From sequence record EU863408: a stretch of DNA of 64,000 bases. One strand, written 5' to 3'. Shown piece after piece: positions 9,859 through 33,368 of the stretch. Source of the stretch: Escherichia phage JSE. The position numbers and the translations under genes were made by a program. Within the stretch, counting starts at the first letter, position 1, and each line of letters opens with the position of its first letter. Under the pieces are notes generated by a model that saw only the letters and a list, made by a program, of their open reading frames with translations, made no database searches and was not told the DNA's origin.

Positions 9859-11361
9859 ATGCAAGATATTAAAATTCACTTTCTGAACTATTCCCATGTT
9901 CAAATTGAATGTAGCGATTCAATTTTATTAGAAATGCGAGATTATTTTAGTTTTGAAGTCGAGGGAGCGCGGTTTCAAAAACGAGTAAAATACGGAGGCT
10001 GGGATGGGCGTATTCGTCTTTTAGATTACAACGGAAAGCTGCCAATCGGCCTAACTAAAACCGTGGGAATCTTCGCTAAAAATATGGGCTATAGTGTATG
10101 GGTAGATCCTCGCTTATTCGAAAAAGAACAAGTTACAGAAGAAGAAATTACAAAATGGTGTAATGCCTTAGAATTATATTCCGGTGCTAACAGGATCACC
10201 CCGCATTGGTATCAATCAAAGGCTGTCTTTGAAGGTATCCATCATAAACGCCGTATGTTAGTTTTGCCTACGTCCGCTGGTAAATCTGCGATTGCTTGTA
10301 TGTTGTCTCGCTGGTACTTAGAGAACTACGAAGGGAAAGTGCTGATCATCGTTCCTACCACGTCGCTAGTGCTGCAAATGCGTGATGACTTTGTTGATTA
10401 TCGCCAGTTTCCTTATGAAGCAATTCATACTATCATGAGCGGTACTAGTAAACACGTAGGTGATCGCCTGATCGTTGTTAGTACGTGGCAATCTGCATGT
10501 AAACAACCTCGTGAGTGGTTCCAGCAATTTGGGATGGTTATTGTTGACGAATGTCACAAAGCCACTGCTAAAAACCTGCTAAACATCGTTACTGATATGG
10601 ATCATTGCCAGTTTAAGATCGGCATGACTGGTTCCCCTCGTGACGGGAAAGCTAACATGATGCAGTATGTCGGGCTTTTCGGTGATATTTCTAAGATCGT
10701 GAGTATTGACCGCCTGATGGAAGAAGGGCAGGTGACAAAACTGAAAATTAACTGTCTTTTCCTTCGTTATACCGATGAGGAATGTAGCGCGGTTAAGGGG
10801 CGAGAATATGCGGAAGAGATCAAGTATATTACATCTAACCCACGACGAAATAAGTTTGCTTGTAATTTGGCGCTAAAACTCGCTAAGAAGGGCGAAAACG
10901 TATTCCTGATGTTCCGCAACACTAAGCACGGAAAACTTATGTATGACGCGTTACAGAAGGTACACGACAAGGTTTATTATATTGACGGTGGAGTTAAGAC
11001 AGAAGAACGAGACGAGTTCAAAAAATTAGCGGAAGGGGAAACAGGGATCATTTGTGTTGCGTCTTATGGTGTATTCTCTACTGGTGTTTCAATTAAGAAT
11101 TTGCATCATGTTATTTTCGGTCATCCAGTGAAGGAATCAACTATCGTTCGTCAGAGTATCGGTCGTGCATTGCGTAAACATGGTTCTAAGGATATTGCAA
11201 CGGTCTGGGATCTTATCGATCATTTGGCGGTTAAGACAAAGAGCAAGAATGCTAAGAAACAGTTTAGCCACCTTAATTATGCTCTTAAACATGCGCTTGA
11301 AAGAATAAAAATTTACAACACCGATCGATTCGAATATGTCACGAAAACAATCGAGATCTAA
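9859..11361 (+). CDS. uvsW: UvsW DNA/RNA helicase (SF2)
   Basis: Near-colinear match to T4 UvsW (LPTSAGKS Walker A, DECH box); start placed at ATG 9859 (MQDIKIHF); TATAAATA at 9815-9822. Confidence 0.95.
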   Translation: MQDIKIHFLNYSHVQIECSDSILLEMRDYFSFEVEGARFQKRVKYGGWDGRIRLLDYNGKLPIGLTKTVGIFAKNMGYSVWVDPRLFEKEQVTEEEITKWCNALELYSGANRITPHWYQSKAVFEGIHHKRRMLVLPTSAGKSAIACMLSRWYLENYEGKVLIIVPTTSLVLQMRDDFVDYRQFPYEAIHTIMSGTSKHVGDRLIVVSTWQSACKQPREWFQQFGMVIVDECHKATAKNLLNIVTDMDHCQFKIGMTGSPRDGKANMMQYVGLFGDISKIVSIDRLMEEGQVTKLKINCLFLRYTDEECSAVKGREYAEEIKYITSNPRRNKFACNLALKLAKKGENVFLMFRNTKHGKLMYDALQKVHDKVYYIDGGVKTEERDEFKKLAEGETGIICVASYGVFSTGVSIKNLHHVIFGHPVKESTIVRQSIGRALRKHGSKDIATVWDLIDHLAVKTKSKNAKKQFSHLNYALKHALERIKIYNTDRFEYVTKTIEI

Positions 11362-20965: not shown

Positions 20966-23017
20966 TTACATTTTAAATTTATCTGGCATTGCGTCTACAG
21001 ATACCAGATCAGCGATAAGCTGACGTAGAGTTGCCTTATCTGCTTTCTTACGTTCGGTTTTAGCTTCGCTAATGAAGCTGGAGAAAGACAGGTCAGAAGC
21101 AGGTTTAACAACACCTTCACGGATGAATGCATCACCGTCTGCGATCATCTCGCCAGATTCTTGTAATGCTGCCAGTTCATTTTTGTTCATAATATGTGCC
21201 TCAATGTAATAAGTTTCTTGTGAATCCGTCGATGCCGTAGCACGAGTTACCGTATCAAAGGATAACACAACACCGCGAGGAAGTAAAATCTCGCATTCTT
21301 TGTAAGCAAATGCTTTGTTACCTACTGGCAATACAGGGATGTTTTCCGCGCCAGCAATGGAGAAAGCAACATTAGCGCCACCTTCACCGCGAGAGCCAGC
21401 CATAGAATCAACACCAGCAACGGCACTAGCCACGTTTGCATTCCAGCCGCCAAAAATGTTAGGTGCAAGGGAAGTGCTCACATAGTTTTTAAAGTAAAAC
21501 GCTTTTTGCTTACGTGCAGTTTCCCACATTTGCGACCGGAAGTCCATACCACGATACAGAATAGTACCCGGATCAAGTTTAACGCCATAGTTGGAGAAGG
21601 CATTATCCAGTGCATCGCACATCTTGACCAATTCTTCTGGATCTGAGATTCCTTCAAACTCTTCCAGCTTACGGTCGGTTAGGAAGTTGTTCATATTGAT
21701 GTATGCTGCATCGGCATATTCGCTCAACACAAAACCTTCCGCGCCTGGCAGATCAAGATCAATATTTGCCATCATTTCACCCATGTTGCTAGCAATTGCT
21801 TCAAACATACCGGAAGCAACATTACGTAGGGCATCGGTTTTAATCTGGGTGATATTACTACGCAGCATTTCAGCTTTTACATCTGCTGGCATAGACTGGT
21901 CTACTCGATCCATTGCCAGTGCGGTGATCTTGTTTTCGAATACTTCCTCGCTCATGATTTCTTTTAAGCGTTTGATTGATGCTGCGATAACTTCCGCAGA
22001 CAACGGATCATATTGATCCTGAACTTTTACCAGTTCGCTTACTGCGTATTTTGCATCGGCTTCGCTTTCAAAAATAGTACGCATGAAACCATAGCGAGTG
22101 ATAATATCACTTGTCCAGTCATTCAGAGAACGGGCGGTTGAACGTTCTAAGGCTTGACGATCAATCAGAGTATTAAACTGTTTCTTAGGTTCTGCTTCGG
22201 TGATATCTTCTTCCGGTTTAAGATTAATTTTTTCTGGATGATTCACATAGTCGCTGTTATAGGTCGCTTGAGTTTTCAGCATTTCTTCTTTAGTCAAACG
22301 AGATTTAGCCGCTACGCGTTGTTCCGCTTCCGCGTTTCGTTCTTCTTCTGACACAAGACTAGCCGCATACGCTTCATCTTTAGTCAGAGATTCACCAGTA
22401 GCCTTAGATACCCAGCGATCACCTAAATCACTTTCTACTTTAGTGAACAAGGAATCATCAAGTTTAATCCCTTTAATCTTATCAATCGCCATACCGCGAC
22501 GCTTGACAACAACTAAAGCGATCTTTTTGCTGGTCATTACTTCCTGCTGGAATACTTCAAACTTCGGTGTACGACGCACCAAACGCTCTATAACGCGCTT
22601 AACCAGTTCGGTCTTACCTTTCATGCGGGATACGTTAAAACGGAACATAACAGCGTCTAGTTGCGCTTTACGGGCTGTTTCCATAACCACATCAAAAGCA
22701 CTTGACATAACTGCAATCGGGTTATCGCCTAGACCATTTTTAAGCTGTACAATACGACCGCTTTTGTTCATTTCGCACAGTACAACATGTGCGGTCTTGT
22801 CACCCATACGAATGATTTTAGGTGTTTTGTTGGTGAAGTTACAAAGACGGACAATCACATCTTTATCGCGTGTCTGTACTGCAAAAAGCTGTTTAGGATT
22901 CTGCTTAGGCTTTAAGCACTGTACCGGGGCAATACTACCAAAGTTTTCTTCCTCTTCCGTCAACAGCCATTTCTCGAAAGATTCAATCATTAGATCGTCG
23001 ATTTCTAAGTTAAACAT
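20966..23017 (-). CDS. alt: Alt ADP-ribosyltransferase (packaged)
   Basis: 683 aa (T4 Alt is 682 aa); C-terminal YRG...STS...ECE motifs; position after gene 54. Confidence 0.85.
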   Translation of the reverse strand: MFNLEIDDLMIESFEKWLLTEEEENFGSIAPVQCLKPKQNPKQLFAVQTRDKDVIVRLCNFTNKTPKIIRMGDKTAHVVLCEMNKSGRIVQLKNGLGDNPIAVMSSAFDVVMETARKAQLDAVMFRFNVSRMKGKTELVKRVIERLVRRTPKFEVFQQEVMTSKKIALVVVKRRGMAIDKIKGIKLDDSLFTKVESDLGDRWVSKATGESLTKDEAYAASLVSEEERNAEAEQRVAAKSRLTKEEMLKTQATYNSDYVNHPEKINLKPEEDITEAEPKKQFNTLIDRQALERSTARSLNDWTSDIITRYGFMRTIFESEADAKYAVSELVKVQDQYDPLSAEVIAASIKRLKEIMSEEVFENKITALAMDRVDQSMPADVKAEMLRSNITQIKTDALRNVASGMFEAIASNMGEMMANIDLDLPGAEGFVLSEYADAAYINMNNFLTDRKLEEFEGISDPEELVKMCDALDNAFSNYGVKLDPGTILYRGMDFRSQMWETARKQKAFYFKNYVSTSLAPNIFGGWNANVASAVAGVDSMAGSRGEGGANVAFSIAGAENIPVLPVGNKAFAYKECEILLPRGVVLSFDTVTRATASTDSQETYYIEAHIMNKNELAALQESGEMIADGDAFIREGVVKPASDLSFSSFISEAKTERKKADKATLRQLIADLVSVDAMPDKFKM

Positions 23018-23055
23018 TTTATATCCTCTAGTTGATAACCTATAAACCTATATTT

Positions 23056-23084
23056 ATGAAAACGGGGCTTAACGCCCCTTTTTA
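23056..23084 (-). terminator. hairpin terminator, possibly bidirectional
   Basis: GGGGC-TTAAC-GCCCC with T-runs on both strands. Confidence 0.5.
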
Positions 23085-23297
23085 TTATAATGCACCATCG
23101 AGCAATTGCTCTAAGGTGTATCCTGAATAGTCTTTTTCAATCAGGATATATTTTCCTACTCGTTTAATACAACCGCGCATTTCAACGTATTCTGCGTAGT
23201 TGATGGTACGAGTTGTTCCATCTTCCAGTAATGCAGTACCGATTTCGTTAATGCGGTCATAAGTTACGTCGGTAATGATGATTTCGATGTTAGCCAT
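23085..23297 (-). CDS. hypothetical protein
   Basis: 70 aa ORF with own promoter cassette. Confidence 0.45.
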   Translation of the reverse strand: MANIEIIITDVTYDRINEIGTALLEDGTTRTINYAEYVEMRGCIKRVGKYILIEKDYSGYTLEQLLDGAL

Positions 23298-23333
23298 TTG
23301 ATACTCCTTAGTAGTTCGTTTCTGTATGGGTGT

Positions 23334-23362
23334 ATTATGATATACACCCTCTGTTATGTCAA
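23334..23362 (-). promoter_or_regulatory. early promoter cassette (TTGACA-N17-CATAAT)
   Basis: Precedes ORF 23085..23297; -10 overlaps a GGGTGTAT/ATACACCC palindrome. Confidence 0.5.
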
Positions 23363-23368
23363 CAACTT

Positions 23369-23548
23369 TTAGAACATTTTTGAAATTAATTCTGCTTTGA
23401 TTTCGCAGAGAACATCTAAAGATTTCTCGTCACCCGCTTTTGCTGCTTCTGCTTGCATTTTTGAAATGGCTTCAATCTCAGTGCAATTATAAGCCGCTTG
23501 AACTTTAGCGATTGCGATGATTGCCGATTCGATGGTTAAGTGTTTCAT
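23369..23548 (-). CDS. hypothetical small protein (59 aa)
   Basis: AAGGAG site 8 nt upstream; preceded by promoter cassette at 23581-23609; not in track. Confidence 0.4.
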   Translation of the reverse strand: MKHLTIESAIIAIAKVQAAYNCTEIEAISKMQAEAAKAGDEKSLDVLCEIKAELISKMF

Positions 23549-23580
23549 GTTTGATTCTCCTTTCGTTTCGGTATGTGTGT

Positions 23581-23609
23581 ATTATAGGGGATCGATGATC
23601 CCCTGTCAA
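23581..23609 (-). promoter_or_regulatory. early promoter with stem-loop spacer (PeSL-like)
   Basis: TTGACA, palindromic spacer GGGGATCATCGATCCCC, TATAAT, then AAGGAG site. Confidence 0.6.
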
Positions 23610-23617
23610 CAACTTTT

Positions 23618-24136
23618 TTAGTTATTTTTTAATTGCTCATCTTGCAATAGGGCAATCACATGCTGGCGATGTTCTTCCGATTGAGGCACACCGAAAAAGT
23701 TTGTTTTGTAGAAATACTCTAATCGGTCTTCTCGTGTGCTCTCTTCCATCATGATCGCGGGTAGTCCGAGATTTCGGAAACGTCGCTTTTCTGCTGGCGT
23801 AAAATCACTGTAATACAACATAGAATCATCATTACCAGCAATGCTAAACTCATCCTTCATAAAGGAGAATATTGCGTTTAAACGCTGTTTACCGTCCACG
23901 ATTTCGATCTCATAGCGAGAGCCATCATCAATCTTAGCCATTGCGATAGCACCAACCGGAAAATCATTAATCAGGTTTTCGATAAACATACGTTTGTTTT
24001 CTGTGTCCCATACTAAAGGACGCTGATAATCTGGGTTCATGTTGATATAGCCATCTTCTAACCATGCATCATAAACAGAGATGACAAAGTTTTTAGTATT
24101 GGTATAGTAACGGCGTTTAGGCGTTAAACGGTTCAT
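23618..24136 (-). CDS. DUF262 / ParB-like nuclease-fold domain protein
   Basis: DYQRPLVW and IVDGKQRLNAI motifs typical of DUF262; start placed at ATG 24136 with AGGAG site. Confidence 0.5.
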   Translation of the reverse strand: MNRLTPKRRYYTNTKNFVISVYDAWLEDGYINMNPDYQRPLVWDTENKRMFIENLINDFPVGAIAMAKIDDGSRYEIEIVDGKQRLNAIFSFMKDEFSIAGNDDSMLYYSDFTPAEKRRFRNLGLPAIMMEESTREDRLEYFYKTNFFGVPQSEEHRQHVIALLQDEQLKNN

Positions 24137-24137
24137 G

Positions 24138-24467
24138 TTATAGTCTCCTGAATGGATCATCACGTAAATCAATATCTTTTAAGAACTCATCCCATGAATG
24201 CCGGATATTGTTCTTAATTCTCCAGATAAGCGCAGGGATTGAACGCTCTCCCATCTGGAAGTAAGGATCATATGATCCGTATGCCCAATATGCTACTACA
24301 ATTCCACAATCAGCGCAATAGTATTCTATTTCACTTGCTGGCGACCAAAGTCCATCAATATGATCGGTGATCTTGCTTTCGATGTTATGGCTATGACAAT
24401 CAGGGCAACGGATGCAATGACCTTGTTTATCGTAATTTGACGTTAGCGAATACTTAAACAATCTCAT
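24138..24467 (-). CDS. zinc-ribbon protein
   Basis: Two CxxC pairs (CIRCPDC and CADC). Confidence 0.5.
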   Translation of the reverse strand: MRLFKYSLTSNYDKQGHCIRCPDCHSHNIESKITDHIDGLWSPASEIEYYCADCGIVVAYWAYGSYDPYFQMGERSIPALIWRIKNNIRHSWDEFLKDIDLRDDPFRRL

Positions 24468-25183
24468 TATAGATCCTTATTTGCTTCAAATACTGCCTTT
24501 GCGAATCCTCGCGGGGTAAGTGACCTTATAGTCTTTGTTTTCGTTCCTTTCCCGCCTAGCTTAGAATGCTGTTTACTGTACCCTTTATTAATCTGCAACG
24601 GTTTCTTTTCTGGCATTATAAAGCCTTGTCCGGACCATAAGCAAGTCTTTTTCGGGTACATATCACGGGCGGCAATATACTCAGGAAACGTAGGATGCTT
24701 ATCATCTTCCGGCAAATAACCGCCATATTCCCACGGATGGAACATATAATCAGGCTTACGCCACATGCTAGAGATAACGCTTACAGGATTCTCTATCATG
24801 TAGGGAACTCCTAGCCATTCACCCAAATAAGCGGTTATTTTAGCTGCCCTTACATCATGAACTTGAATCAATGGTCCTTGCTCTCGTTTCTTTCGTTCAA
24901 AGTGTGCAGCGCCACTAACAGCTAAATTGGTGCACGGTGGGAATGCAAAGATAATATCCGGTTTCCCCCATTCAAGGTCCATTGCTCTTTCCAGCCAGTT
25001 CAAATCAATCCAGGTGTTTACATAGGTAATGTTTGGATGTTCAAATCTGGTATTATACTTTTTGTATGTACCGTGGTCGGCGTCATCCGCATTAAAGCAG
25101 ACTACCTTATGACCTGCTTTAGCCCATTCTAGCCCCATTATCCCCGATCCGTCAAAGTTGCAGAATATTAATTTTTGTTTCAC
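24467..25183 (-). CDS. SAM-dependent methyltransferase-like protein (cytosine-5 MTase-like motifs)
   Basis: FxGxG motif I (FDGSGIMG), PC motif IV (FPPCTNLAVSG), ENP in place of ENV; lacks an obvious target-recognition domain. Confidence 0.4.
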   Translation of the reverse strand: MKQKLIFCNFDGSGIMGLEWAKAGHKVVCFNADDADHGTYKKYNTRFEHPNITYVNTWIDLNWLERAMDLEWGKPDIIFAFPPCTNLAVSGAAHFERKKREQGPLIQVHDVRAAKITAYLGEWLGVPYMIENPVSVISSMWRKPDYMFHPWEYGGYLPEDDKHPTFPEYIAARDMYPKKTCLWSGQGFIMPEKKPLQINKGYSKQHSKLGGKGTKTKTIRSLTPRGFAKAVFEANKDL

Positions 25184-25431
25184 GCTGCCCCCATTGGTTT
25201 GATAGTAACAGAATCTAAAAGACCTTTGTTAGCCAGTTCGCGGCAAGTTTTCAGATCCGCAACTTCCCAGCCAGCCGCAATCAGGTTATCAATGAGGCTG
25301 TTAGCAACTTCTTCGCTCATGAAAGAGCACTGTTTGCCGATGGTGTAGCGTACACGCTGTAATTTCAGTTTACGGAAGCCTTTAACGTTCAGGTCTTTAG
25401 CGATTTTCTTTGCGGTTTCGATGTTAGCCAT
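25180..25431 (-). CDS. hypothetical protein, first gene of a four-gene operon
   Basis: 83 aa; overlaps the next start; promoter cassette at 25472-25500. Confidence 0.5.
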   Translation of the reverse strand: MANIETAKKIAKDLNVKGFRKLKLQRVRYTIGKQCSFMSEEVANSLIDNLIAAGWEVADLKTCRELANKGLLDSVTIKPMGAA

Positions 25432-25471
25432 TGTTTGATTCTCCTAAGTGGTATCTCGTCTTGATGGTTGT

Positions 25472-25500
25472 ATTGTAGGGGAGTTATCCTCCCCTGTCAA
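25472..25500 (-). promoter_or_regulatory. early promoter with stem-loop spacer (PeSL-like)
   Basis: TTGACA, spacer GGGGAGGATAACTCCCC, TACAAT; drives the four-gene operon 25431 to 23618. Confidence 0.55.
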
Positions 25501-25514
25501 CACTTTTTATAAAA

Positions 25515-25682
25515 TTATTTGTTAATTTCTGGTGCGTTGCTAGGATAGTAACCTTCTTTAACTCCGAGATATTTCGCAACCATCCCTACAATCTTCTGTG
25601 CTACTACAATGTCAAATTTCAGATAATCTTCGCCGTGGGTTTCAATGATATATGCTTCACATGCTGCTTTAGTCTCGAACAT
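25515..25682 (-). CDS. hypothetical small protein (55 aa), copy A of a duplicated gene
   Basis: About 85 percent nucleotide identity to 28994..29161 by eye; own promoter cassette. Confidence 0.45.
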   Translation of the reverse strand: MFETKAACEAYIIETHGEDYLKFDIVVAQKIVGMVAKYLGVKEGYYPSNAPEINK

Positions 25683-25715
25683 TTTGATTCTCCTATTTCG
25701 TTTCGGTATGTGTGT

Positions 25716-25744
25716 ATTATAGGGGATCGGTGATCCCCTGTCAA
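25716..25744 (-). promoter_or_regulatory. early promoter with stem-loop spacer (PeSL-like)
   Basis: TTGACA, GGGGATCACCGATCCCC, TATAAT. Confidence 0.6.
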
Positions 25745-25750
25745 CAACTT

Positions 25751-26062
25751 TTAGCGACGGCGACGATGTTTTTTGCGAGTTGCCTTTTTGTATGCTTTAT
25801 ATGCCTTTTTACCGTTTTTATATGCTTTTTTGGTATATGATTGATTTTTCTTATTGTTTTTGTATGTTTCCCGGTCAGTATTAATTTCGTTACATTCCAC
25901 GAAACGGTGTCGATGTTCTTGTGGTATGATCAAACATTTATCATAATTAACCATTTCGTTTTTCGTTGTTTGTGGTTTCTTTGGTGTGTTGTTTGCACTA
26001 ACAGACCCAGCAAAGAGAATGAGTATAGCGGTCATTAACGCAAACATTGTTTTCTTAATCAT
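25751..26062 (-). CDS. secreted small basic protein
   Basis: N-terminal signal peptide; lysine/arginine-rich C-terminus. Confidence 0.5.
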   Translation of the reverse strand: MIKKTMFALMTAILILFAGSVSANNTPKKPQTTKNEMVNYDKCLIIPQEHRHRFVECNEINTDRETYKNNKKNQSYTKKAYKNGKKAYKAYKKATRKKHRRRR

Positions 26063-26120
26063 AATATTCTCCTTTAGTTTCTGCGGGAGTGTGAATATAA
26101 CACTCCCTTAATATTTTGTA

Positions 26121-26402
26121 TTATTCGTGATTAGTTTCGATGTTGTGCATTTTGCACCAGTTCAGCCAATCGCCCAGATCTTGATAGTTAATGCTTTTAT
26201 CTGCTGCCATCGTTTTTGTCTTGATACCCATATGTGCGTTATGAGTAAGCATTTTTACAGTGAACTCGATTTTATCGCCTTTAGCTTTAACATCAACCAG
26301 TTTGGTCCACTGGCTACCAGCACCGCGAATGTTCATACCAACGATGTTTCCGATGTATGCTTCTTTGTTTTTCAGGATTTCGGTTGCTTTGATGAATTTC
26401 AT
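26121..26402 (-). CDS. hypothetical protein
   Basis: 93 aa ORF with promoter cassette at 26436-26464. Confidence 0.5.
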   Translation of the reverse strand: MKFIKATEILKNKEAYIGNIVGMNIRGAGSQWTKLVDVKAKGDKIEFTVKMLTHNAHMGIKTKTMAADKSINYQDLGDWLNWCKMHNIETNHE

Positions 26403-26435
26403 TTTTGATTCTCCAGTTCGTTTCGGTATGGGTGT

Positions 26436-26464
26436 ATTATGCTATGTTCTTACTTTGGTGTCAA
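26436..26464 (-). promoter_or_regulatory. early promoter (TTGACA-N17-CATAAT)
   Basis: Cassette without palindromic spacer. Confidence 0.5.
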
Positions 26465-26473
26465 CAACTTTTT

Positions 26474-26743
26474 TTAGATATTTTCAGAAATAAATTTTAA
26501 AACTTGACGTAAATGTTTCTCATCTTTGATGGTAGCCGGAAGTTCTTCTTTTACTTCCTGTGCAAGATAGATATTTCCGTTCCAAGTGAAAGATCCGTCT
26601 TCGTTTACTCGATAGCTGAACATCCACTCGCAATCATTTTCGATTTCATATACACACAGAAGGGTGTAATCGTTAAAGCTATTGATTTCAAGGTCGAAGC
26701 CGTGACGTTTTGCAAAGTTGGTAGTGGTTTTAGTCAGTACCAT
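26474..26743 (-). CDS. hypothetical protein
   Basis: 89 aa ORF with promoter cassette at 26784-26812. Confidence 0.5.
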   Translation of the reverse strand: MVLTKTTTNFAKRHGFDLEINSFNDYTLLCVYEIENDCEWMFSYRVNEDGSFTWNGNIYLAQEVKEELPATIKDEKHLRQVLKFISENI

Positions 26744-26783
26744 TGTTTGATTCTCCTAAGTGGTATCTCGTCTTGATGGGTGT

Positions 26784-26812
26784 ATTATGCTATACACAGG
26801 ATCTGGTGTCAA
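26784..26812 (-). promoter_or_regulatory. early promoter (TTGACA-N17-CATAAT)
   Basis: Same cassette family. Confidence 0.5.
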
Positions 26813-26835
26813 TGCCTTTTTTAAAATTTTATGCA

Positions 26836-26862
26836 ATAAAAAAGCCGACGCTAAGGTCGGCT
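26836..26862 (-). terminator. rho-independent terminator
   Basis: AGCCGACC-TTAG-CGTCGGCT then T7 on minus strand. Confidence 0.6.
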
Positions 26863-26869
26863 AATAAAA

Positions 26870-27177
26870 TCATTTAGACAAATAATCATTCAGTGCAATC
26901 CGGTCGGCGTATGCTGGTGTTACGTCAATCGCAATCACTTTAACGCGTGCTTTCTTGCGACCTGGGTTTTCTCGTAACCAGTGCTCATGACCGTGAACAT
27001 TTTATACTGCGATGCTTCTTCGAAAGTACGGATCGGACAAGGGTAATCAGCGTAAAGGATCTCTAGGTCTTCGGTGATGTAAAAATATACATCATAATTA
27101 CTGTTCTCTAGTTTAAGCAGAGACTTTCGGAACATTGGGAGATTTTCGCGGGTAAATTCAAAGATATTATCTTTCAT
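26870..27177 (-). pseudogene. HxHW-family small protein, frameshifted at an A4/T4 tract (26997-27000)
   Basis: Track ORF 26935..27177 carries the family N-terminus (YFYITEDLEI); the C-terminal HGHEHW...VIAIDVTPAYAD lies in another frame. Confidence 0.4.
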
Positions 27178-27227
27178 AGTATTATCCTCAATAGTTGGAT
27201 GAAAAGGGGGGCTTAATGCCCCGTATA

Positions 27228-27515
27228 TTAAAACAGTCCTTCCTGTACACCGTAGTAGAGTTCATCGCTGATAATTTCATTAATGCGACGGTGTGCATAT
27301 TCCTGATTTGCGAAGTTGTCAGCAAGTTCTACTTTAGTTTCGCCATCATGAGTCCATTTAGTGATAACTTTACCATCGGCAAATTTGAAGTTGAACTCTT
27401 TAGCTACCGCATCGCGTACCAGACGTGCAAACTTATTGTTGCGGATTGCATTGTCGGTTTCGTGTGCAGCGTGAGCGAATTTGTTAACTTTCAGAGTGAT
27501 AGTAATGTATGCCAT
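27228..27515 (-). CDS. hypothetical protein
   Basis: 95 aa; possible paralog of 30649..30960 (shared AKEFN segment). Confidence 0.5.
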   Translation of the reverse strand: MAYITITLKVNKFAHAAHETDNAIRNNKFARLVRDAVAKEFNFKFADGKVITKWTHDGETKVELADNFANQEYAHRRINEIISDELYYGVQEGLF

Positions 27516-27561
27516 AATTTGATTCTCCTAGTTAGAAAGTGTATCTCGTTTCGACGGGTGT

Positions 27562-27590
27562 ATTATGCTATACACCCGATCCATTGTCAA
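27562..27590 (-). promoter_or_regulatory. early promoter (TTGACA-N17-CATAAT)
   Basis: GGGTGTAT/ATACACCC palindrome around the -10. Confidence 0.5.
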
Positions 27591-27922
27591 CGCCTTTTTA
27601 TAAAATAATTTTCGATATCTTTATGATGTTTTTCTCGTGCTTGGTCTGCCTCGGCTGGCGATACGTTGGAAGCGATAATCTTCACTACTGTTGCACCTTT
27701 TTCGGTGTCCGACACCCAATGATTATGGAAACCGCTATTATTAAACACTTGATAAGAAAATGATTTAATGTTAGGGAAATTATAAGTGTAATAACGTACC
27801 CTTAATTCTGAATCTACGTATAGATAGATCACCGCACCTAGATAGACCGTCTCACTCGTTCCGTCAACTAACAGTAGAGTATTTCGCAATTCTTCTAAAT
27901 TGTCTTTTGTAAGAAAAATCAT
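27587..27922 (-). CDS. HxHW-family small protein
   Basis: YLYVDSEL ... HNHW ... IASNVSPAEAD. Confidence 0.55.
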   Translation of the reverse strand: MIFLTKDNLEELRNTLLLVDGTSETVYLGAVIYLYVDSELRVRYYTYNFPNIKSFSYQVFNNSGFHNHWVSDTEKGATVVKIIASNVSPAEADQAREKHHKDIENYFIKRR

Positions 27923-27936
27923 AGTATAATCCTCAA

Positions 27937-28272
27937 TTAAACCAAATTAACTTTGGTGTTGTGGTGGTTTTCTCGTGCGTCGTCCGCTTCTTCCGGTGTC
28001 ACGTTACGAGCGACGACAATAACACTTGCTGCCTCTCCGTGATGATAGATCTCTACCCAATGGTTATGATTTGCGAATCCGTGTTTTATTGCGTAAGCGA
28101 ACGGCTTAGACGTCCAGTAGTAACTATAATATCGTACATTTAGATCGCTATCAATGTACAAATATGTGCTGTCGTTTACATTGCCACTAACAACAAAAAC
28201 AAGACAATTGCGAAGATCTGACAATATTTTGTCTGTCAATTTTATAATGTGACTGTTCATAATTAACACCAC
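27937..28272 (-). CDS. HxHW-family small protein
   Basis: YLYIDSDL ... HNHW ... VARNVTPEEAD; tandem with 27587..27922. Confidence 0.55.
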   Translation of the reverse strand: MVLIMNSHIIKLTDKILSDLRNCLVFVVSGNVNDSTYLYIDSDLNVRYYSYYWTSKPFAYAIKHGFANHNHWVEIYHHGEAASVIVVARNVTPEEADDARENHHNTKVNLV

Positions 28273-28478
28273 TCAAGAGTTTTTGAAAACACATCTATCC
28301 ATTGTTGAGTATATGCGGTTTCTTTCCATGACACAATACCAGTCGAATAATGGTTTTTGTTTCCAGAAAAGGACGGGCATTTTGATGCATCTTCCATCAT
28401 CTTTTCGGCGAACTCTGGTTCGTATACCCGCAGAATCTGTTGATATGCTTTGTATTCTTTAAATTTGCTCATAATCAT
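28263..28478 (-). CDS. hypothetical protein
   Basis: 71 aa ORF. Confidence 0.4.
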   Translation of the reverse strand: MIMSKFKEYKAYQQILRVYEPEFAEKMMEDASKCPSFSGNKNHYSTGIVSWKETAYTQQWIDVFSKTLEWC

Positions 28479-28737
28479 TCACTACCTTATCAGCTTCTTT
28501 TGTTGTTTTTACATCAACTGCGATAACCCGTAAAGGTTCGTCATGGTTCCACCAATGATCGTGAATATCGGCTTGTGATTTATCACCAAAGGAATCACGA
28601 ATATCATTTTTACATTTATAGCTAATGTGACCGTCATAGTCAACATAAAGGTAATTATCGAAAATCGGCGTTTTTAAGATCATACCGAAAAATCTTTCTT
28701 TGTGTGTCTTATCCAGTGTTGCAGTAATTCGCATCAT
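28459..28737 (-). CDS. HxHW-family small protein
   Basis: YLYVDYDG ... HDHWW ... VIAVDVKTTKEAD. Confidence 0.5.
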   Translation of the reverse strand: MMRITATLDKTHKERFFGMILKTPIFDNYLYVDYDGHISYKCKNDIRDSFGDKSQADIHDHWWNHDEPLRVIAVDVKTTKEADKVVNDYEQI

Positions 28738-28749
28738 AATATATTCCTC

Positions 28750-28929
28750 TTAGAAAGGGATGGTCATTTCTTGAGCTTGTACATTCTCGTTAGGATTAAA
28801 CTTCATCCAACCGATATTGTCTACCAGCATATGCACATTTTTATCATATCCTACGTGGGTAGTCAATACTGTATGTGCTTTACCTTCAACGATGATTTCC
28901 ATGTACTTCTGAACTTCGATAGCTTTCAT
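28750..28929 (-). CDS. hypothetical small protein (59 aa)
   Basis: GGAGAATCAAA-ATG start context; promoter cassette at 28962-28990; not in track. Confidence 0.4.
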   Translation of the reverse strand: MKAIEVQKYMEIIVEGKAHTVLTTHVGYDKNVHMLVDNIGWMKFNPNENVQAQEMTIPF

Positions 28930-28961
28930 TTTGATTCTCCGTTTGTTGTCTTGATGGGAGT

Positions 28962-28990
28962 ATCTTACTACTCCCTTTAATCATTGTCAA
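28962..28990 (-). promoter_or_regulatory. early promoter cassette, weak -10 (TAAGAT)
   Basis: TTGACA plus GGGAGTA/TACTCCC palindrome. Confidence 0.4.
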
Positions 28991-28993
28991 CTA

Positions 28994-29161
28994 TTATTTG
29001 TTAATTTCCGGTGCGTTGCTTGGATAGTAGCCTTCTTTAACACCCAGATATTTTGCAACCATTCCGGTGATCTTCTGTGCTACTACGATATCGAATTTCA
29101 GGTAGTCTTCACCGTGGTTTGCTACAATGTATGCTTCGCATTCTGCTTTAGTCTGGAACAT
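28994..29161 (-). CDS. hypothetical small protein (55 aa), copy B of a duplicated gene
   Basis: Paralog of 25515..25682; start placed at ATG 29161 because the longer track ORF would include the promoter. Confidence 0.45.
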   Translation of the reverse strand: MFQTKAECEAYIVANHGEDYLKFDIVVAQKITGMVAKYLGVKEGYYPSNAPEINK

Positions 29162-29195
29162 TTTTGATTCTCCTATATCTCGTTGGTATGTGTGC

Positions 29196-29224
29196 ATTAT
29201 AGGGGATCACCGATCCCCTGTCAA
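29196..29224 (-). promoter_or_regulatory. early promoter with stem-loop spacer (PeSL-like)
   Basis: TTGACA, GGGGATCGGTGATCCCC, TATAAT. Confidence 0.6.
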
Positions 29225-29229
29225 CAACT

Positions 29230-29524
29230 TTATAATGCTTTATATGCGTATTTCATAAATTTGTCTGCCACTTCATTGGCATGTTCAGATTCTACGCCTG
29301 ATTCGAGAACAATAGCTAGGTCGGTTTCGTCATTCCCGCCGTACCAATGATTTGATGTTCGATTTTTTTCAATTGGAAATTGGTCACTTTTATCTGTGCG
29401 ACAAAATACATCTAAATGCTCATCGATGTAAAAGATCCAATCTTCATAAAGAATAACGGGTATTAGCAAGATTTTTATTGCCTTCAACGAAAGGTTCGGC
29501 TACAAACAAATTAGTATGTTCCAT
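29230..29524 (-). pseudogene. HxHW-family small protein, frameshifted at an A5/T5 tract (29472-29476)
   Basis: ATG at 29524 with TATAAT and GAGG upstream reads 26 codons then stops; the family body (IFYIDEHL ... SNHW ...) continues in the +1 frame. Confidence 0.4.
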
Positions 29525-29540
29525 AGTAATTTCCTCAAAA

Positions 29541-29732
29541 TTATACAGCTTCGTAAACTTCCCAATGTCCAACACCAGCACGCTTAACGAAAAGGTTTTC
29601 TTTGATGTTATTCATAAACGTCTGGATGGATTTAATGCGGTTTGAAGGTTTCCATTCTTCGTTGGAATTGCGGCGATACATAATAACATTACCAGTTCGC
29701 TTATATTCAGCAACCATTTTAAGACAACACAT
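29541..29732 (-). CDS. hypothetical protein
   Basis: 63 aa ORF. Confidence 0.35.
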   Translation of the reverse strand: MCCLKMVAEYKRTGNVIMYRRNSNEEWKPSNRIKSIQTFMNNIKENLFVKRAGVGHWEVYEAV

Positions 29733-29788
29733 AATATTATCCTCAATTTGTGGGAGAGTATTACCCCTCCCGATGTTGTTATATTACA

Positions 29789-30109
29789 TTACACAAAATG
29801 GCGTGTCAATGCTTCTTTTGCGGTTCCGCTAAGACTTTCGATCTCGCCTGGCATAACATCAACCGCCAGAACTTCTACAACATCCTCGGACCCTAACCAG
29901 TGAGTATGGCCTTTGTAGAACTTGATAACCAGACTACCTTCCTCGTCCCATTTAACGCTATCGCTAGCCCACCACACATCACCGTCGATAAAGTTGATGT
30001 AAAGCACACTACGCCACATTGAATTAATTACTTTCAATACTGCGCCTTTCATCTCTTCCACGGTATGGTCTTCCATTTTGAAGACCTCACCTACCTGAAC
30101 TTTTGCCAT
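29789..30109 (-). CDS. HxHW-family small protein
   Basis: GHTHW ... VLAVDVMPGE; start placed at ATG 30109 right after the stop of the upstream ORF. Confidence 0.5.
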   Translation of the reverse strand: MAKVQVGEVFKMEDHTVEEMKGAVLKVINSMWRSVLYINFIDGDVWWASDSVKWDEEGSLVIKFYKGHTHWLGSEDVVEVLAVDVMPGEIESLSGTAKEALTRHFV

Positions 30110-30110
30110 G

Positions 30111-30377
30111 TTACATGCTCCGAATATGTTTAGCTGCATCTTCCAGTTCGTCGATAGTGACACTGTGTGCCAGTAAGTGTACTGGTTGTGGTTCTTCACC
30201 TTCCATAGTATTGATCAGATGACCGTTTCCTGGGTGGAATGTATCGTTGCCGTTCCAAATAGCATACACATCATCTTCTGTTACGTAGATAATAAGTCCA
30301 ATCGGTGATTCTGGTAATTGAAAAATTTTACCCACTGCATCTTTGCGATTGTTTACGATATCTTTTACTGTCTTCAT
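30111..30377 (-). CDS. hypothetical protein, divergent relative of the HxHW family
   Basis: IYVTEDDVY and LLAHSVTIDELEDA resemble family blocks. Confidence 0.4.
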   Translation of the reverse strand: MKTVKDIVNNRKDAVGKIFQLPESPIGLIIYVTEDDVYAIWNGNDTFHPGNGHLINTMEGEEPQPVHLLAHSVTIDELEDAAKHIRSM

Positions 30378-30396
30378 TTAGTTACCTCTCGTTAAA

Positions 30397-30576
30397 TTAC
30401 ATCACAATCACGCCAGCCGTTGAAAGTTGATGTTTCAACTGAGCATTTTCTGCTACTGTCAAATCAATGATTTCTTGTGACGCTGCAATCATATAGCCAT
30501 TGGTGATATTGTTTTGCATCAGTTCAATGGTTTCTTCGTTGTAGCGGATTTTAGCGATGATTTCGTTGAAGTTCAT
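30397..30576 (-). CDS. hypothetical small protein (59 aa)
   Basis: Promoter cassette at 30611-30640 and GGAGAATCAAAC-ATG start context; not in track. Confidence 0.4.
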   Translation of the reverse strand: MNFNEIIAKIRYNEETIELMQNNITNGYMIAASQEIIDLTVAENAQLKHQLSTAGVIVM

Positions 30577-30610
30577 GTTTGATTCTCCTAGTTCGTTTCG
30601 GTATGTGTGT

Positions 30611-30640
30611 ATTATAGGGGAGTTTAACCTCCCCTGTCAA
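30611..30640 (-). promoter_or_regulatory. early promoter with stem-loop spacer (PeSL-like)
   Basis: TTGACA, GGGGAGGTTAAACTCCCC, TATAAT. Confidence 0.55.
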
Positions 30641-30648
30641 CAACTTTT

Positions 30649-30960
30649 TTAAAGTTTTTCCATGATAACGGTCATAATTACATCTTCTGCGCGAGCGGTC
30701 AGATTATCAGCGTCAGCATGTGGGCGGTTGGTTGTTACAGAGATAACACCGTTGCGCACTGGTTTGATATTGATATCAAGATGATCCGCGAAACGTTCGC
30801 CAGTTACAGAATGAATTTTGGTGTTAAATTCTTTTGCCAGTGCCTTGCGAACTTCACGAATCAGGATAGCGTTTTTCAGTTGGTTCTCCGCGCTCATGGT
30901 CTTCTGGGTGTTCATGGTTCCGTCGAAGTCAATCATTGGCAGCGTTACGATGTATTTCAT
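30649..30960 (-). CDS. hypothetical protein
   Basis: 103 aa ORF with promoter cassette at 31006-31034. Confidence 0.5.
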   Translation of the reverse strand: MKYIVTLPMIDFDGTMNTQKTMSAENQLKNAILIREVRKALAKEFNTKIHSVTGERFADHLDINIKPVRNGVISVTTNRPHADADNLTARAEDVIMTVIMEKL

Positions 30961-31005
30961 TTTTGATTCTCCGTTTAAGAAAGTGTGTTTCGTTTTGATG
31001 TGTGT

Positions 31006-31034
31006 AGTATAGGGGATACGTGATCCCCTGTCAA
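31006..31034 (-). promoter_or_regulatory. early promoter with stem-loop spacer (PeSL-like)
   Basis: TTGACA, GGGGATCACGTATCCCC, TATACT. Confidence 0.5.
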
Positions 31035-31047
31035 CAACTTTTTTGAA

Positions 31048-31392
31048 TTATTTTTTCATGAGCTTAATGGCTTCTTCCATAGCCAGCACATTTCGATAGT
31101 TAGGGTATCGTGTTAGATCGTCATACATTCGCTTAAGGGTGGAAACTTCCTCAAACTCTGGGTTTTCTAGATACAGTTGAACAAATTGTTTCTCTACCAT
31201 CTCGGCTTTTAGCTTGTCTGCTTGTTCCTGTTCATATGATTTCGTTGGACCCAACACCAACAAAATGATAAAGGTGATCAACGGGCTAATGATCAATGAT
31301 AGGATAACATAACCGATAACGCTACGGTTTAAACGGCTTGCGTACATGCCTACCAGGAAAACAAAAAGGATATAGATAAACAGAAAGAACAT
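31048..31392 (-). CDS. small membrane protein
   Basis: Two hydrophobic helices at the N-terminus. Confidence 0.5.
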   Translation of the reverse strand: MFFLFIYILFVFLVGMYASRLNRSVIGYVILSLIISPLITFIILLVLGPTKSYEQEQADKLKAEMVEKQFVQLYLENPEFEEVSTLKRMYDDLTRYPNYRNVLAMEEAIKLMKK

Positions 31393-31399
31393 ATAATAG

Positions 31400-31873
31400 T
31401 TACTCCTTATTTTCGCGCTCGTACTTTTCGAAATAAAATTCTACTGGCTGGTCATGAATTGACAGCAAGCCAAAGCGTTTAGCCGCTCGCAATCCCATAT
31501 TGCGCTGAATATACTTCTGGAAGTTCTCGCGTATACACTTACGCCAGTATTCTAAGCCCATACAGCTTTTATAAAGATTGCATTGTACACACGCCGGATT
31601 CATGTTATCAAGTATATCATGTTCCGGTTTATGCATTCCTACGACCTTATACTTCCACGATCCATCATCATTACGGGCAATTCGTCCATTTTCATCATAG
31701 ACTACCTTTGAGCGTCGCAATACTGGTTTGATGTGGTCTGCGTGCCAGCGATCCCCTAGTTCCTCGCCACAATAGGCACAACGTCCACCATATTTCATTT
31801 TCAGGATCTGGCGTTGCTCTTTCTTTGACAATTTTTTAGGTTTAGGGGCTTTCGCCCCTTCATTATCACACAT
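31400..31873 (-). CDS. HNH endonuclease
   Basis: CAYCGEEL ... WHADHIKP ... CVQCN HNH zinc-finger motif; overlaps the ligase 3' end. Confidence 0.65.
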   Translation of the reverse strand: MCDNEGAKAPKPKKLSKKEQRQILKMKYGGRCAYCGEELGDRWHADHIKPVLRRSKVVYDENGRIARNDDGSWKYKVVGMHKPEHDILDNMNPACVQCNLYKSCMGLEYWRKCIRENFQKYIQRNMGLRAAKRFGLLSIHDQPVEFYFEKYERENKE

Positions 31874-33368
31874 CGAATACCTCTTTTACTGTATTTGCAG
31901 TGGTCTTGTCGTAGCGAATACGTTTGATGATTGGGAGAAATAAAGAGAACTCCGGTTCATCTTCTTTACGTGATTTGCTGCGGATATACCCGTTGCATGT
32001 CATCTCAATGACTTTTCCAATCAGGTTATGACGGTCAGCCCATAACATTTCTCGGTCGAGTTCATTTCGACGATCGAACGGAATTACACGTTCAGTACCA
32101 TCATCACCTTTTTCGGTTGTAGTGTCGGTTAATCCCGATCCGGTGTTAGTCATCATTCGTCCGCACGCACTACGGACAGTAAAACCGCCTACCTTATTGG
32201 GGTCTTTACTATGCGGATATACATCAACAATTTCCGCGTCGAAGTCAATCACTTCTTTAAATTTAACCTGATCTTTACTACGGCGATCTTCAAATACACC
32301 ATGTAAATTTTTAAGGATAATACCTTCTAAGCCCATGTTTACATAGCGATGATATACTTCGCGAGCTTCATCTATATTGTTAACTACAGTGTTTTCGATT
32401 ATCTGAACACGAGGATCGTTAAGTTCTTCAACAATCTGTTTTAGTTCTTCGAATCGATCTTTATATTGCTTCGTTGCTTTCTCGTTTCCGTAATACACAT
32501 CACGGTCGATAACATCCCAGACAGTGTAAACAATACATTGGGCTTCTTCTTTTGGAATAGTTCCTTTCAGTGATTTGTTGAGGATACCATTTACGGTCTG
32601 ACGATCTGCAACAACGGATTCTTTTACTGCTTCCGCTACTGGCGTTAATGGCATTTCCTCTTCTTCAAATATCCATGACAGAGTACCATCATAAACGCTT
32701 TCAACGAAGTTCTGCGCTGGTGTTTGCGAAAGGGTAGGCATATATACCAATTCCCCATCTAGAACAATTCCACGGCCTCGTAGACGCTCTAAAACAGCAA
32801 ACAAATCATCCAGCCCCTGATAGGTATTACCTGAACGGGTATAGATTGCTAATGTTTCCCCGTCAATATCAGCCATCCCACGAGCGCCATCGCTTTTAAG
32901 TTGTGCATACGCCGGATACTTGATATTAGCAATAGTCTTATCAGAACATGACGATGCAAGGTGACACGGTTGCTGGGGGATCAGTTTCTTCCATACCTTG
33001 TTTGCAGTGGTAGCTGAACAGCCGCATTCCAGATCACGATTCAGGACCATCATTGCAACTTTAGCATCATCCTCTGACAAGCAAGTCAGAGTATCGGTAA
33101 CTAGCTGTAATGCTGCATTACCAGTTACTTGACGCGTGGCAAGTTTATTTTTAAAGACCTGTAATGCACCGGATAAAGACAATACAGACGAATAACGCGA
33201 TGGTTTATCGTATTTCTTTACGCCAAACGTAACCTGTTTGCAATATGCCAGATAAAAACATTCTTTCAGTGTTTCATTGCTTGCAGATTCTTTCAGGATC
33301 TTTTCTTTCAGCGATGTTTTGTCTGTTGCTGCAAGCTGGTTAATGATATTAAGAATTGACATTTTCAC
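31866..33368 (-). CDS. 30: ATP-dependent DNA ligase gp30
   Basis: 500 aa; colinear with T4 DNA ligase, including a lysine-containing YAQLKSDGAR segment and GIILKN. Confidence 0.95.
   Translation of the reverse strand: MKMSILNIINQLAATDKTSLKEKILKESASNETLKECFYLAYCKQVTFGVKKYDKPSRYSSVLSLSGALQVFKNKLATRQVTGNAALQLVTDTLTCLSEDDAKVAMMVLNRDLECGCSATTANKVWKKLIPQQPCHLASSCSDKTIANIKYPAYAQLKSDGARGMADIDGETLAIYTRSGNTYQGLDDLFAVLERLRGRGIVLDGELVYMPTLSQTPAQNFVESVYDGTLSWIFEEEEMPLTPVAEAVKESVVADRQTVNGILNKSLKGTIPKEEAQCIVYTVWDVIDRDVYYGNEKATKQYKDRFEELKQIVEELNDPRVQIIENTVVNNIDEAREVYHRYVNMGLEGIILKNLHGVFEDRRSKDQVKFKEVIDFDAEIVDVYPHSKDPNKVGGFTVRSACGRMMTNTGSGLTDTTTEKGDDGTERVIPFDRRNELDREMLWADRHNLIGKVIEMTCNGYIRSKSRKEDEPEFSLFLPIIKRIRYDKTTANTVKEVFDV

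What the first reader, a model, noticed from the sequence alone, without database searches (positions are those of the whole stretch)
25515..25744. Duplicated 55 aa gene with duplicated promoter cassette
ORF 25515..25682 and ORF 28994..29161 encode near-identical 55 aa proteins (MFETKAACEAYIIETHGEDYLKFDIVVAQKIVGMVAKYLGVKEGYYPSNAPEINK versus MFQTKAECEAYIVANHGEDYLKFDIVVAQKITGMVAKYLGVKEGYYPSNAPEINK). DNA identity is about 85 percent by eye, and each copy is followed upstream by the same stem-loop promoter cassette. The roughly 3.5 kb separation with unrelated genes in between suggests cassette-mediated duplication or transposition rather than simple tandem duplication.
Basis: seen in the sequence. 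Interest (0 to 1): 0.45.

Follow-up and report, generated by a model that had tools for sequence, protein, structure and literature searches.

The report
Duplicated small phage gene between PeSL cassettes
The two near-identical 55-residue genes are real: they are ORF191 and ORF205 of an RB49-like T4-type coliphage, each sitting between copies of the already published promoter/stem-loop "PeSL" cassettes that shuffle small genes in this exact region, so this is a clean example of a known mechanism and not a new system.

Summary
ORFs 25515..25682(-) and 28994..29161(-) encode 55-aa proteins with 49/55 identical residues and 142/168 identical bases. The repeated unit is 239 bp (25514-25752 and 28993-29231): a promoter/stem-loop cassette plus the ORF, ending one base past the stop codon.

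The window is a Krischvirus (RB49/phi1-like). The copies are RB49 ORF191 and ORF205, in the hyperplastic region where Arbiol et al. 2010 defined PeSLs (TTGACA-N17-TATAAT with a GGGG...CCCC hairpin in the spacer). That paper cloned PeSL206/205 as a strong promoter and found mini-circles carrying ORFs 191-194.

The cassette is not private to the pair. The PeSL in front of copy A is 96% identical to one in front of an unrelated gene, against about 84% to copy B's.

The duplication is old and both copies are constrained (dS about 1, dN/dS about 0.05). Relatives show:
- PeSL-bounded loss of copy A (Brandy, JK32, UPWr_E1, MIZ4);
- deletion of everything between the copies (Cognac, FL04);
- mosaic gene conversion between the copies.

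Cassette-mediated dispersal fits the evidence but the original event cannot be reconstructed. Protein function is unknown. Interest is low to moderate.

The parts
25515..25682 (-). Copy A: 55-aa ORF, ortholog of RB49 ORF191 / phi1 ORF191 (phrog_8009)
25683..25752 (-). PeSL upstream of copy A. The AAAAGTTG lead-in comes first, then -35 TTGACA at 25739-25744. The hairpin GGGGATCACCGATCCCC is at 25722-25738 and -10 TATAAT at 25716-25721. A leader with the AGGAG ribosome-binding site follows.
25432..25514 (-). PeSL downstream of copy A (PeSL191/190). The core TTGACA-GGGGAGGATAACTCCCC-TACAAT is at 25472-25500. It drives the ORF190 homolog at 25180..25431.
28994..29161 (-). Copy B: 55-aa ORF, ortholog of RB49 ORF205 / phi1 ORF205
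29162..29231 (-). PeSL upstream of copy B (PeSL206/205). The core TTGACA-GGGGATCGGTGATCCCC-TATAAT is at 29196-29224. The RB49 ortholog of this element gave about 13,000 Miller units in a lacZ fusion (PMC2839356).
28930..28993 (-). PeSL downstream of copy B (PeSL205/204), a different subclass. It has TTGACA, a 17-nt spacer and -10 TAAGAT (28962-28990). The hairpin GGGAGTA-N6-TACTCCC overlaps the -10 box. The -35 box starts 4 nt after the stop codon of copy B.
25514..25752 (-). Repeat unit A (239 bp: PeSL core plus ORF through the stop codon)
28993..29231 (-). Repeat unit B (239 bp), 84.9% identical to unit A
25753..28992 (-). Variable block of small ORFs between the copies (homologs of RB49 ORFs 193-204 plus window-specific ORFs). 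It is wholly absent in phages Cognac and FL04.

Best explanation
The window comes from a Krischvirus, an RB49/phi1-type T4-like coliphage. The two genes are the orthologs of RB49 ORF191 and ORF205, in the hyperplastic early-gene region between alt and DNA ligase.

Each copy is a self-contained early-expression module. It has a PeSL (promoter-early stem-loop): a consensus sigma70 promoter whose 17-nt spacer forms a GC-rich hairpin. The published work reports that such hairpins attenuate read-through from upstream. A consensus ribosome-binding site, the 55-codon ORF and then the next PeSL follow directly.

The roughly 70-90 nt PeSLs are a dispersed repeat family. The phage's homologous-recombination machinery exchanges DNA between them. 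I infer that one such PeSL-by-PeSL exchange placed a second copy of the ORF at another PeSL a few kb away. The route could have been an excised mini-circle or an unequal exchange between replicating genomes.

The event is old, because synonymous sites are saturated. Both copies have since been kept by purifying selection, with six fixed amino-acid differences. They still recombine with each other, which gives gene-conversion patches and, in some phages, deletion of the whole block between them.

Shown here: the anatomy, the orthology, the selection pattern, and the PeSL-bounded deletions and chimeric junctions in relatives. Taken from the literature: promoter and attenuator activity, and circle formation. 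Inferred: the route of the original duplication. Unknown: what the protein does. It is probably a small helical early protein that acts on a host component.
For: Identity of the phage and genes:
- Megablast of 24000-30000 hits 62 phage records, the named ones listed all Krischvirus or RB49-like coliphages. The best cover 83% of the query at about 95-96% identity.
- Copy A is RB49p191/phi1p191 and copy B is RB49p205/phi1p205.

PeSL anatomy:
- There are ten sites with at least 11 of 12 consensus promoter positions in 9 kb, all on the gene strand and all intergenic.
- The hairpins fold with 7-8 bp stems.
- The paper defines PeSLs with exactly these features. It tested PeSL206/205 as a promoter and sequenced mini-circles holding ORFs 191-194.

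Age and selection:
- 17 codons differ only synonymously and 6 differ in amino acid. dN is 0.055, dS 1.05 and omega 0.05.
- A and B share derived residues (H16, E18, Y38) against the siphovirus and metagenome homologs.
- Only the single gene is repeated; the neighbouring genes are unrelated.

Recombination footprints in relatives:
- Brandy, JK32 and UPWr_E1 lack copy A. Their junction is a chimeric PeSL: the 5' half is PeSL193/191 and the 3' half is PeSL191/190.
- MIZ4 lacks ORFs 186-191 and has another chimeric PeSL.
- Cognac and FL04 lack everything between the copies and keep one gene. Their crossover points differ, lying inside the PeSL or at the start of the ORF.
- Synonymous-site patches of A type occur in B copies and the reverse, in Brandy, Sf20, RB49 and Cognac.
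- The spacing between the copies ranges from 3258 to 4326 bp among genomes.
Against: - The founding event is not observable. PeSL similarity is family-wide and PeSL halves are exchanged among loci, so the boundaries of the original duplicated segment are erased.
- Concerted evolution between the copies could mimic a sister relationship.
- The hairpins lack a following U tract and are not picked up as intrinsic terminators by the scan. Attenuator function therefore rests on the published reporter assay for a different PeSL (211/210).
- No function could be assigned to the protein. There is no Pfam or NCBIfam hit, only PHROG 8009 of unknown function. The AlphaFold model has pLDDT 67, and Foldseek found nothing with E <= 0.001 (best E 5.6).
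Confidence: 0.78

Rival explanations
1. The duplication began as a tandem one. An unequal crossover between the PeSLs on either side of a single ORF gave PeSL-ORF-PeSL-ORF. The two copies were later pushed 3-4 kb apart by stepwise PeSL-mediated insertion of other small ORFs between them.
For: The interval between the copies is highly variable in length and content among close relatives: 3258-4326 bp, with window-specific ORFs. It even differs at the slot next to copy A, which is empty in phi1, holds ORF192 in RB49 and holds a new 103-aa ORF here. Insertions between the copies therefore do happen. Unequal exchange between flanking PeSLs is the simplest way to make a first duplicate.
Against: It needs about a dozen later insertions, all between the copies, where one transposition would do. 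No surveyed genome has the copies adjacent. The one-copy genomes are deletions with mosaic junctions, not ancestral states.
Confidence: 0.15
2. The two copies are not an in-genome duplication. They are two diverged alleles of one mobile gene, acquired separately from different phages by recombination at PeSLs (xenologs).
For: The gene family moves between unrelated phages. Homologs with 70-72% identity lie in the siphoviruses Swiduovirus swi2 and Skatevirus SeSz-2, as a small divergently transcribed two-gene unit with its own promoter and terminator. An 83% homolog lies on an unrelated metagenome contig. dS about 1 fits long separate histories.
Against: A and B share derived residues and the C-terminal PEINK tail that the siphovirus homologs lack. 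The exhaustive profile search of 1.84 billion representatives found only about four clusters, so no plausible separate donor lineage is known.
Confidence: 0.07

Closest known systems
PeSL (promoter-early stem-loop) plus ORFan cassettes of RB49/phi1 (Arbiol et al. 2010, PMC2839356; Comeau et al. 2014, PMC4122927)
   Same: It is the same phage genus, the same hyperplastic region and the same orthologous elements. The features match: consensus TTGACA-N17-TATAAT, a GGGG-loop-CCCC hairpin in the spacer, an AT-rich lead-in, and a ribosome-binding site plus ATG at the 3' end. Indels between relatives have chimeric PeSLs at their junctions. PeSL206/205 and the ORF191-194 circle were studied directly in that paper.
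   Different: Neither paper's main text contains 'paralog', and 'duplicat' occurs only once in the 2010 paper, where it describes replicate cultures. The ORF191/ORF205 paralogy is therefore not discussed there. The same holds for the deletions between the two copies, the gene-conversion mosaics and the swapping of hairpin alleles.
Morons of lambdoid and other tailed phages (Hendrix et al. 2000, as discussed in PMC2839356)
   Same: Both are a single accessory gene carrying its own promoter and terminator-like element, inserted between other genes. The siphovirus homologs of this gene look like a classical moron.
   Different: In the moron model the regulatory flanks are not the vehicle of mobility. 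Here the flanks are a conserved repeat family at which the recombination junctions lie.
Integron gene cassettes
   Same: Both are arrays of small, mostly unknown-function ORFs, each bounded by a structured (hairpin-forming) repeat, that can be excised as circles and reinserted. The authors of the PeSL paper draw this analogy themselves.
   Different: No integrase or attC-type site is present. Every PeSL carries its own promoter, whereas an integron has one shared promoter. Exchange is thought to use general homologous recombination.

Membership tests
PeSL cassette (Arbiol et al. 2010) | Near-perfect sigma70 promoter, TTGACA-N17-TATAAT | tested here: met
   12/12 consensus positions at 25716-25744 and 29196-29224. 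The downstream elements score 11/12 (25472-25500) and 10/12 (28962-28990).
PeSL cassette (Arbiol et al. 2010) | Stable stem-loop with polyG/polyC arms placed between, or overlapping, the -35 and -10 boxes | tested here: met
   8-bp stems GGGGAUCN/NGAUCCCC with a 3-nt loop fill the spacer of both upstream PeSLs. The hairpin overlaps the -10 box in the PeSL downstream of copy B.
PeSL cassette (Arbiol et al. 2010) | AT-rich lead-in after the upstream gene's stop codon, and a Shine-Dalgarno sequence plus start codon of a small ORFan at the 3' end | tested here: met
   The sequences read TAA...AAAAGTTG before the -35 box and AGGAGAATCAAA(A)ATG at the 3' end.
PeSL cassette (Arbiol et al. 2010) | Clustered in a hyperplastic region of a T4-type phage genome | tested here: met
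   Krischvirus identity and synteny with RB49 ORFs 185-212. Ten such promoters lie in 9 kb.
PeSL cassette (Arbiol et al. 2010) | Indels between close relatives bounded by PeSLs, leaving a single chimeric PeSL | tested here: met
   Junctions of Brandy/JK32/UPWr_E1, MIZ4, Cognac and FL04.
PeSL cassette (Arbiol et al. 2010) | Strong promoter activity and terminator/attenuator activity in vivo | not testable with these tools
   Published for RB49 PeSL206/205 (promoter, about 13,000 Miller units) and for the PeSL211/210 hairpin (terminator). The hairpins here lack a U tract and are not listed as terminator-like.
PeSL cassette (Arbiol et al. 2010) | Formation of extrachromosomal mini-circles by PeSL-by-PeSL exchange | not testable with these tools
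   Published for RB49 ORFs 191-194 and ORF210 by inverse PCR.
PHROG phrog_8009 (unknown function) | Full-length profile match | tested here: met
   E 6.8e-38 (copy A) and 1.2e-38 (copy B), covering residues 1-55 of a 55-position profile. There is no Pfam or NCBIfam family.

The most novel reading that the evidence does not exclude
The two paralogs with their PeSLs may act as 239-bp direct repeats that make the whole 3.3-4.3 kb block of about a dozen ORFans between them a single excisable and re-insertable unit. Phage populations would then constantly produce with-block and without-block variants, of which Cognac and FL04 would be fixed examples. Separately, the PeSL hairpins may be active recombination initiators. 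The exact reverse-complement loop alleles (ACC/GGT) found at the same orthologous PeSL in different phages could be footprints of hairpin or cruciform extrusion followed by template switching or structure-specific cleavage, and not just passive homology.
Probability: 0.2. Interest if true: 0.5.

Novelty: already known. Interest (0 to 1): 0.27.

Why it matters
The pair is an in-genome example of the step that the PeSL model proposes but that the authors did not show: a PeSL-flanked ORF ending up at a second PeSL site. The comparative data here add independent, sequence-level junctions to a model that rested mainly on one phage pair and on inverse PCR. These comprise four distinct deletions bounded by PeSLs or by the repeat unit itself, plus gene-conversion mosaics. 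For annotation, it explains why assemblies and gene callers stumble at this spot. They produce extended 67/77-aa calls that start inside the -10 box, and the two short contigs examined end about 55 bp past the repeated gene. It does not reveal a new kind of element, and the protein's function remains unknown.

Tried and rejected
Protein function:
- Pfam and NCBIfam gave no family for the 55-aa protein.
- PHROGs gave only phrog_8009, of unknown function, plus a weak phrog_485 hit.
- AlphaFold2 on a 5-sequence alignment gave a two-helix model with a disordered conserved tail at pLDDT 67.
- Foldseek against the PDB gave nothing below E = 5, so no functional inference was drawn.

Other searches that gave little:
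- Rfam found nothing in 23000-32000 at gathering score.
- The word-indexed protein search found 4 clusters and the exhaustive profile search about 4 true clusters, so the family is tiny.
- IMG/VR gave only two loci.
- Literature searches for Krischvirus plus paralog/duplication and for Krischvirus plus PeSL gave nothing useful.

Ideas rejected:
- Segmental duplication, because the neighbouring genes are unrelated.
- A third or degraded copy in the window.
- The 67-aa extended form of copy B, because its ATG overlaps the -10 box.
- Using PeSL similarity to define the duplication boundaries, because the PeSL of copy A is closer to that of an unrelated gene.

Full report
**1. Observation**

All genes in 23-32 kb run on the minus strand. 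They share 49/55 residues and 142/168 bases. Within the window there are exactly two copies, and they are the most similar pair of non-overlapping ORFs in it.

Upstream of each ATG lies a perfect TTGACA-17 nt-TATAAT promoter. Its spacer is an 8-bp-stem hairpin: GGGGATCACCGATCCCC for copy A and GGGGATCGGTGATCCCC for copy B. The strict motif occurs six times in the window against none in 100 shuffles.

By blastn the repeated unit is 239 bp, at 25514-25752 and 28993-29231, with 84.9% identity. Homology begins at AAAGTTG just before the -35 box and ends one base after the stop codon. Downstream of each copy comes another cassette of the same general kind but different sequence. After copy A it is TTGACA-GGGGAGGATAACTCCCC-TACAAT at 25472-25500. 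After copy B it is TTGACA-N17-TAAGAT at 28962-28990, with a hairpin overlapping the -10 box.

**2. What it is**

The region 24000-30000 matches 62 phage records, the named ones listed all Krischvirus or RB49-like coliphages (RB49, phi1, Sf20 and others). The best cover 83% of it at about 95-96% identity. Against the annotated RB49 and phi1 records, copy A is ORF191 and copy B is ORF205. They lie in the run of small early ORFs between alt and DNA ligase.

This is the hyperplastic region in which Arbiol et al. 2010 (PMC2839356) defined the PeSLs, or promoter-early stem-loops. [quoted passage not shown] Each ends with the Shine-Dalgarno sequence and ATG of an ORFan. There are about 50 per genome.

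The paper used these very elements:
- PeSL206/205, the cassette in front of copy B, gave about 13,000 Miller units in a lacZ fusion.
- The ORF192 slot next to ORF191 is their model indel.
- One sequenced mini-circle contained ORFs 191-194.

The 'stem-loop promoter cassette' is therefore a known, named element, and every sequence-level defining feature is met here.

**3. Is the cassette duplicated with the gene?**

It is not, in any demonstrable sense. Over 70 nt the PeSL of copy A is 95.7% identical to the PeSL at 23550-23617, which drives an unrelated gene (the ORF186 homolog). It is 89% identical to the one at 30578-30648, and only about 84% identical to the PeSL of copy B.

Across twelve related loci, orthologous PeSLs carry different hairpin alleles drawn from a small repertoire with loops ACC, GGT, GGGA, ATC and others. 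In RB49 the PeSL of ORF191 has the GGGA loop, and in this window it has ACC. PeSL206/205 has GGT in this window, RB49 and Brandy, but ACC in phi1, Sf20 and MIZ4. Promoter halves are thus exchanged independently of the gene they drive.

**4. Age and selection**

Seventeen codons differ only synonymously and six change the amino acid. Nei-Gojobori gives dN 0.055, dS 1.05 and omega 0.05. The duplication is old and both copies are under purifying selection.

Copy A is 100% conserved at protein level in 42 records. Copy B is identical in this window, RB49, Brandy and others.

Against the outside homologs, A and B share derived residues (H16, E18, Y38). Copy A has one private change (E7A) and copy B has four (E3Q, E14A, T15N, V32T). 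This favours an in-lineage duplication, with one caveat: gene conversion between the copies can create shared states.

**5. Recombination footprints in relatives**

Of about 57 Krischvirus records, about 50 have two copies. The exceptions and mosaics are as follows.
- Brandy, JK32 and UPWr_E1 lack copy A. ORF193 is followed directly by ORF190 through a single chimeric PeSL. Its 5' half is PeSL193/191 and its 3' half, after ACACACAT, is PeSL191/190.
- MIZ4 lacks ORFs 186-191 and has a different chimeric PeSL.
- Cognac and FL04 lack the whole interval between the copies. ORF206 is followed by one 55-aa gene and then ORF190. In Cognac the sequence is B type as far as the ribosome-binding site, A type from the ATG, and carries a B-type patch near the 3' end. 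In FL04 the exchange lies further upstream.
- Synonymous-site mosaics are common. The Brandy B copy has an A-type stretch over codons 17-25. The Sf20 A copy has a B-type patch. The RB49 B copy has an A-type 3' end.
- The spacing between the copies is 3479 bp here, 4326 in RB49, 3275 in phi1 and 3767 in Sf20.

These are several independent events, and all their breakpoints fall in PeSLs or in the repeated unit.

**6. Mechanism**

Shown here:
- each copy is a promoter-hairpin-RBS-ORF module bounded by PeSLs;
- PeSLs and the paralogs are sites of homologous exchange in this genus.

From the literature:
- PeSLs are strong early promoters;
- a PeSL hairpin attenuates read-through;
- PeSL-by-PeSL exchange yields circles.

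Inferred: the second copy arose by such an exchange, which placed the ORF at another PeSL.

A tandem duplication later spread apart by insertions cannot be excluded. Nor can separate acquisition of two alleles. Both of these would also run through PeSLs.

The hairpins have no following U tract and are not scored as intrinsic terminators, so their attenuator role rests on the published assay.

**7. The protein**

The family is very small. The word-indexed search found four clusters, and an exhaustive profile search of 1.84 billion representatives found about four true clusters. It is PHROG 8009, of unknown function, with no Pfam or NCBIfam family.

Homologs with 70-72% identity occur in two siphovirus genera (Swiduovirus swi2 and Skatevirus SeSz-2). 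There the gene is part of a divergently transcribed two-gene unit with its own promoter-like site and terminator, but no GGGG...CCCC hairpin.

AlphaFold2 gives two helices (residues 5-16 and 18-39) and an unstructured but invariant tail, KEGYYPSNA, at pLDDT 67. Foldseek finds nothing.

My best guess is a small early protein that binds a host component. This is inference only.

**8. Verdict**

The finding is real and correctly described. It is an instance of a published mechanism at the published locus. Three things may be unreported: the ORF191/ORF205 paralogy itself, the deletions between the two copies, and the conversion mosaics. Neither PeSL paper uses 'paralog', and 'duplicat' appears only once, for replicate cultures. 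Novelty is low and interest is low to moderate.

Noticed in passing
window 25751-26062 (-), with the hairpin at 26085-26107: The slot between the ORF193 and ORF191 homologs is the paper's model indel: ORF192 in RB49, empty in phi1. Here it holds a different 103-aa ORF with a signal-peptide-like N-terminus and a K/R-rich tail. It has no tblastn or blastn match in 50,697 phage records. Its only relatives are 91-97% identical proteins on short Logan metagenome contigs. The two contigs examined (the 97% cluster) have the same ORF194-ORF193-new ORF-ORF191 order. The ORF is preceded by a hairpin-only element (GGGAGTGTTATATTCACACTCCC) with no consensus -35 or -10 box.
   Followed up: yes
window 25722-25738 and 29202-29218; loci L001-L014: The hairpins of the two PeSLs are exact reverse complements of each other (loop ACC versus GGT). 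Both orientations also occur at the same orthologous PeSL in different phages, upstream of the ORF210, ORF209, ORF205 and ORF186 homologs. The cause is either repeated loop inversion in a perfect palindrome or frequent swapping of promoter halves between PeSLs.
   Followed up: partly
L012 (MIZ4) 9186-9266; L003 (Brandy) 10681-10766; L010 (JK32); L011 (UPWr_E1): In MIZ4, ORF193 is joined directly to ORF185, so ORFs 186-191 are missing. The junction is a chimeric PeSL whose 5' half is the PeSL206/205 type. Brandy, JK32 and UPWr_E1 share another chimeric junction that removes only ORF191.
   Followed up: yes
window 23281-23297 (-) and 25415-25431 (-): The ORF185 and ORF190 homologs are otherwise unrelated proteins. 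They share their first 16 coding bases (ATGGCTAACATCGAAA, MANIE), contiguous with the PeSL leader. PeSL homology may therefore run into the first codons and create chimeric N-termini.
   Followed up: no
window 30110-30374 (ORF 30111..30377, 88 aa) and about 27631-28257: These segments are present in the window but have no DNA match of at least 120 bp in RB49, phi1, Sf20, Brandy, Cognac or FL04. The first is a clean insertion of one small ORF between the ORF209 and ORF208 homologs.
   Followed up: partly
window 27587-27922 (-) and 27937-28272 (-): These are adjacent tandem paralogs of 111 aa each, 43% identical. They are a second, older duplication inside the block between the two 55-aa genes.
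   Followed up: no
window 29195-29197 (-); protein P0004: Automated gene calls extend copy B to 67 or 77 aa by starting at an ATG that overlaps the -10 box (TATAATG). P0004 and P0006 look like chimeric or truncated calls at contig ends. The two short metagenome contigs examined end about 55 bp past the repeated gene, which would fit repeat-induced assembly breaks.
   Followed up: partly
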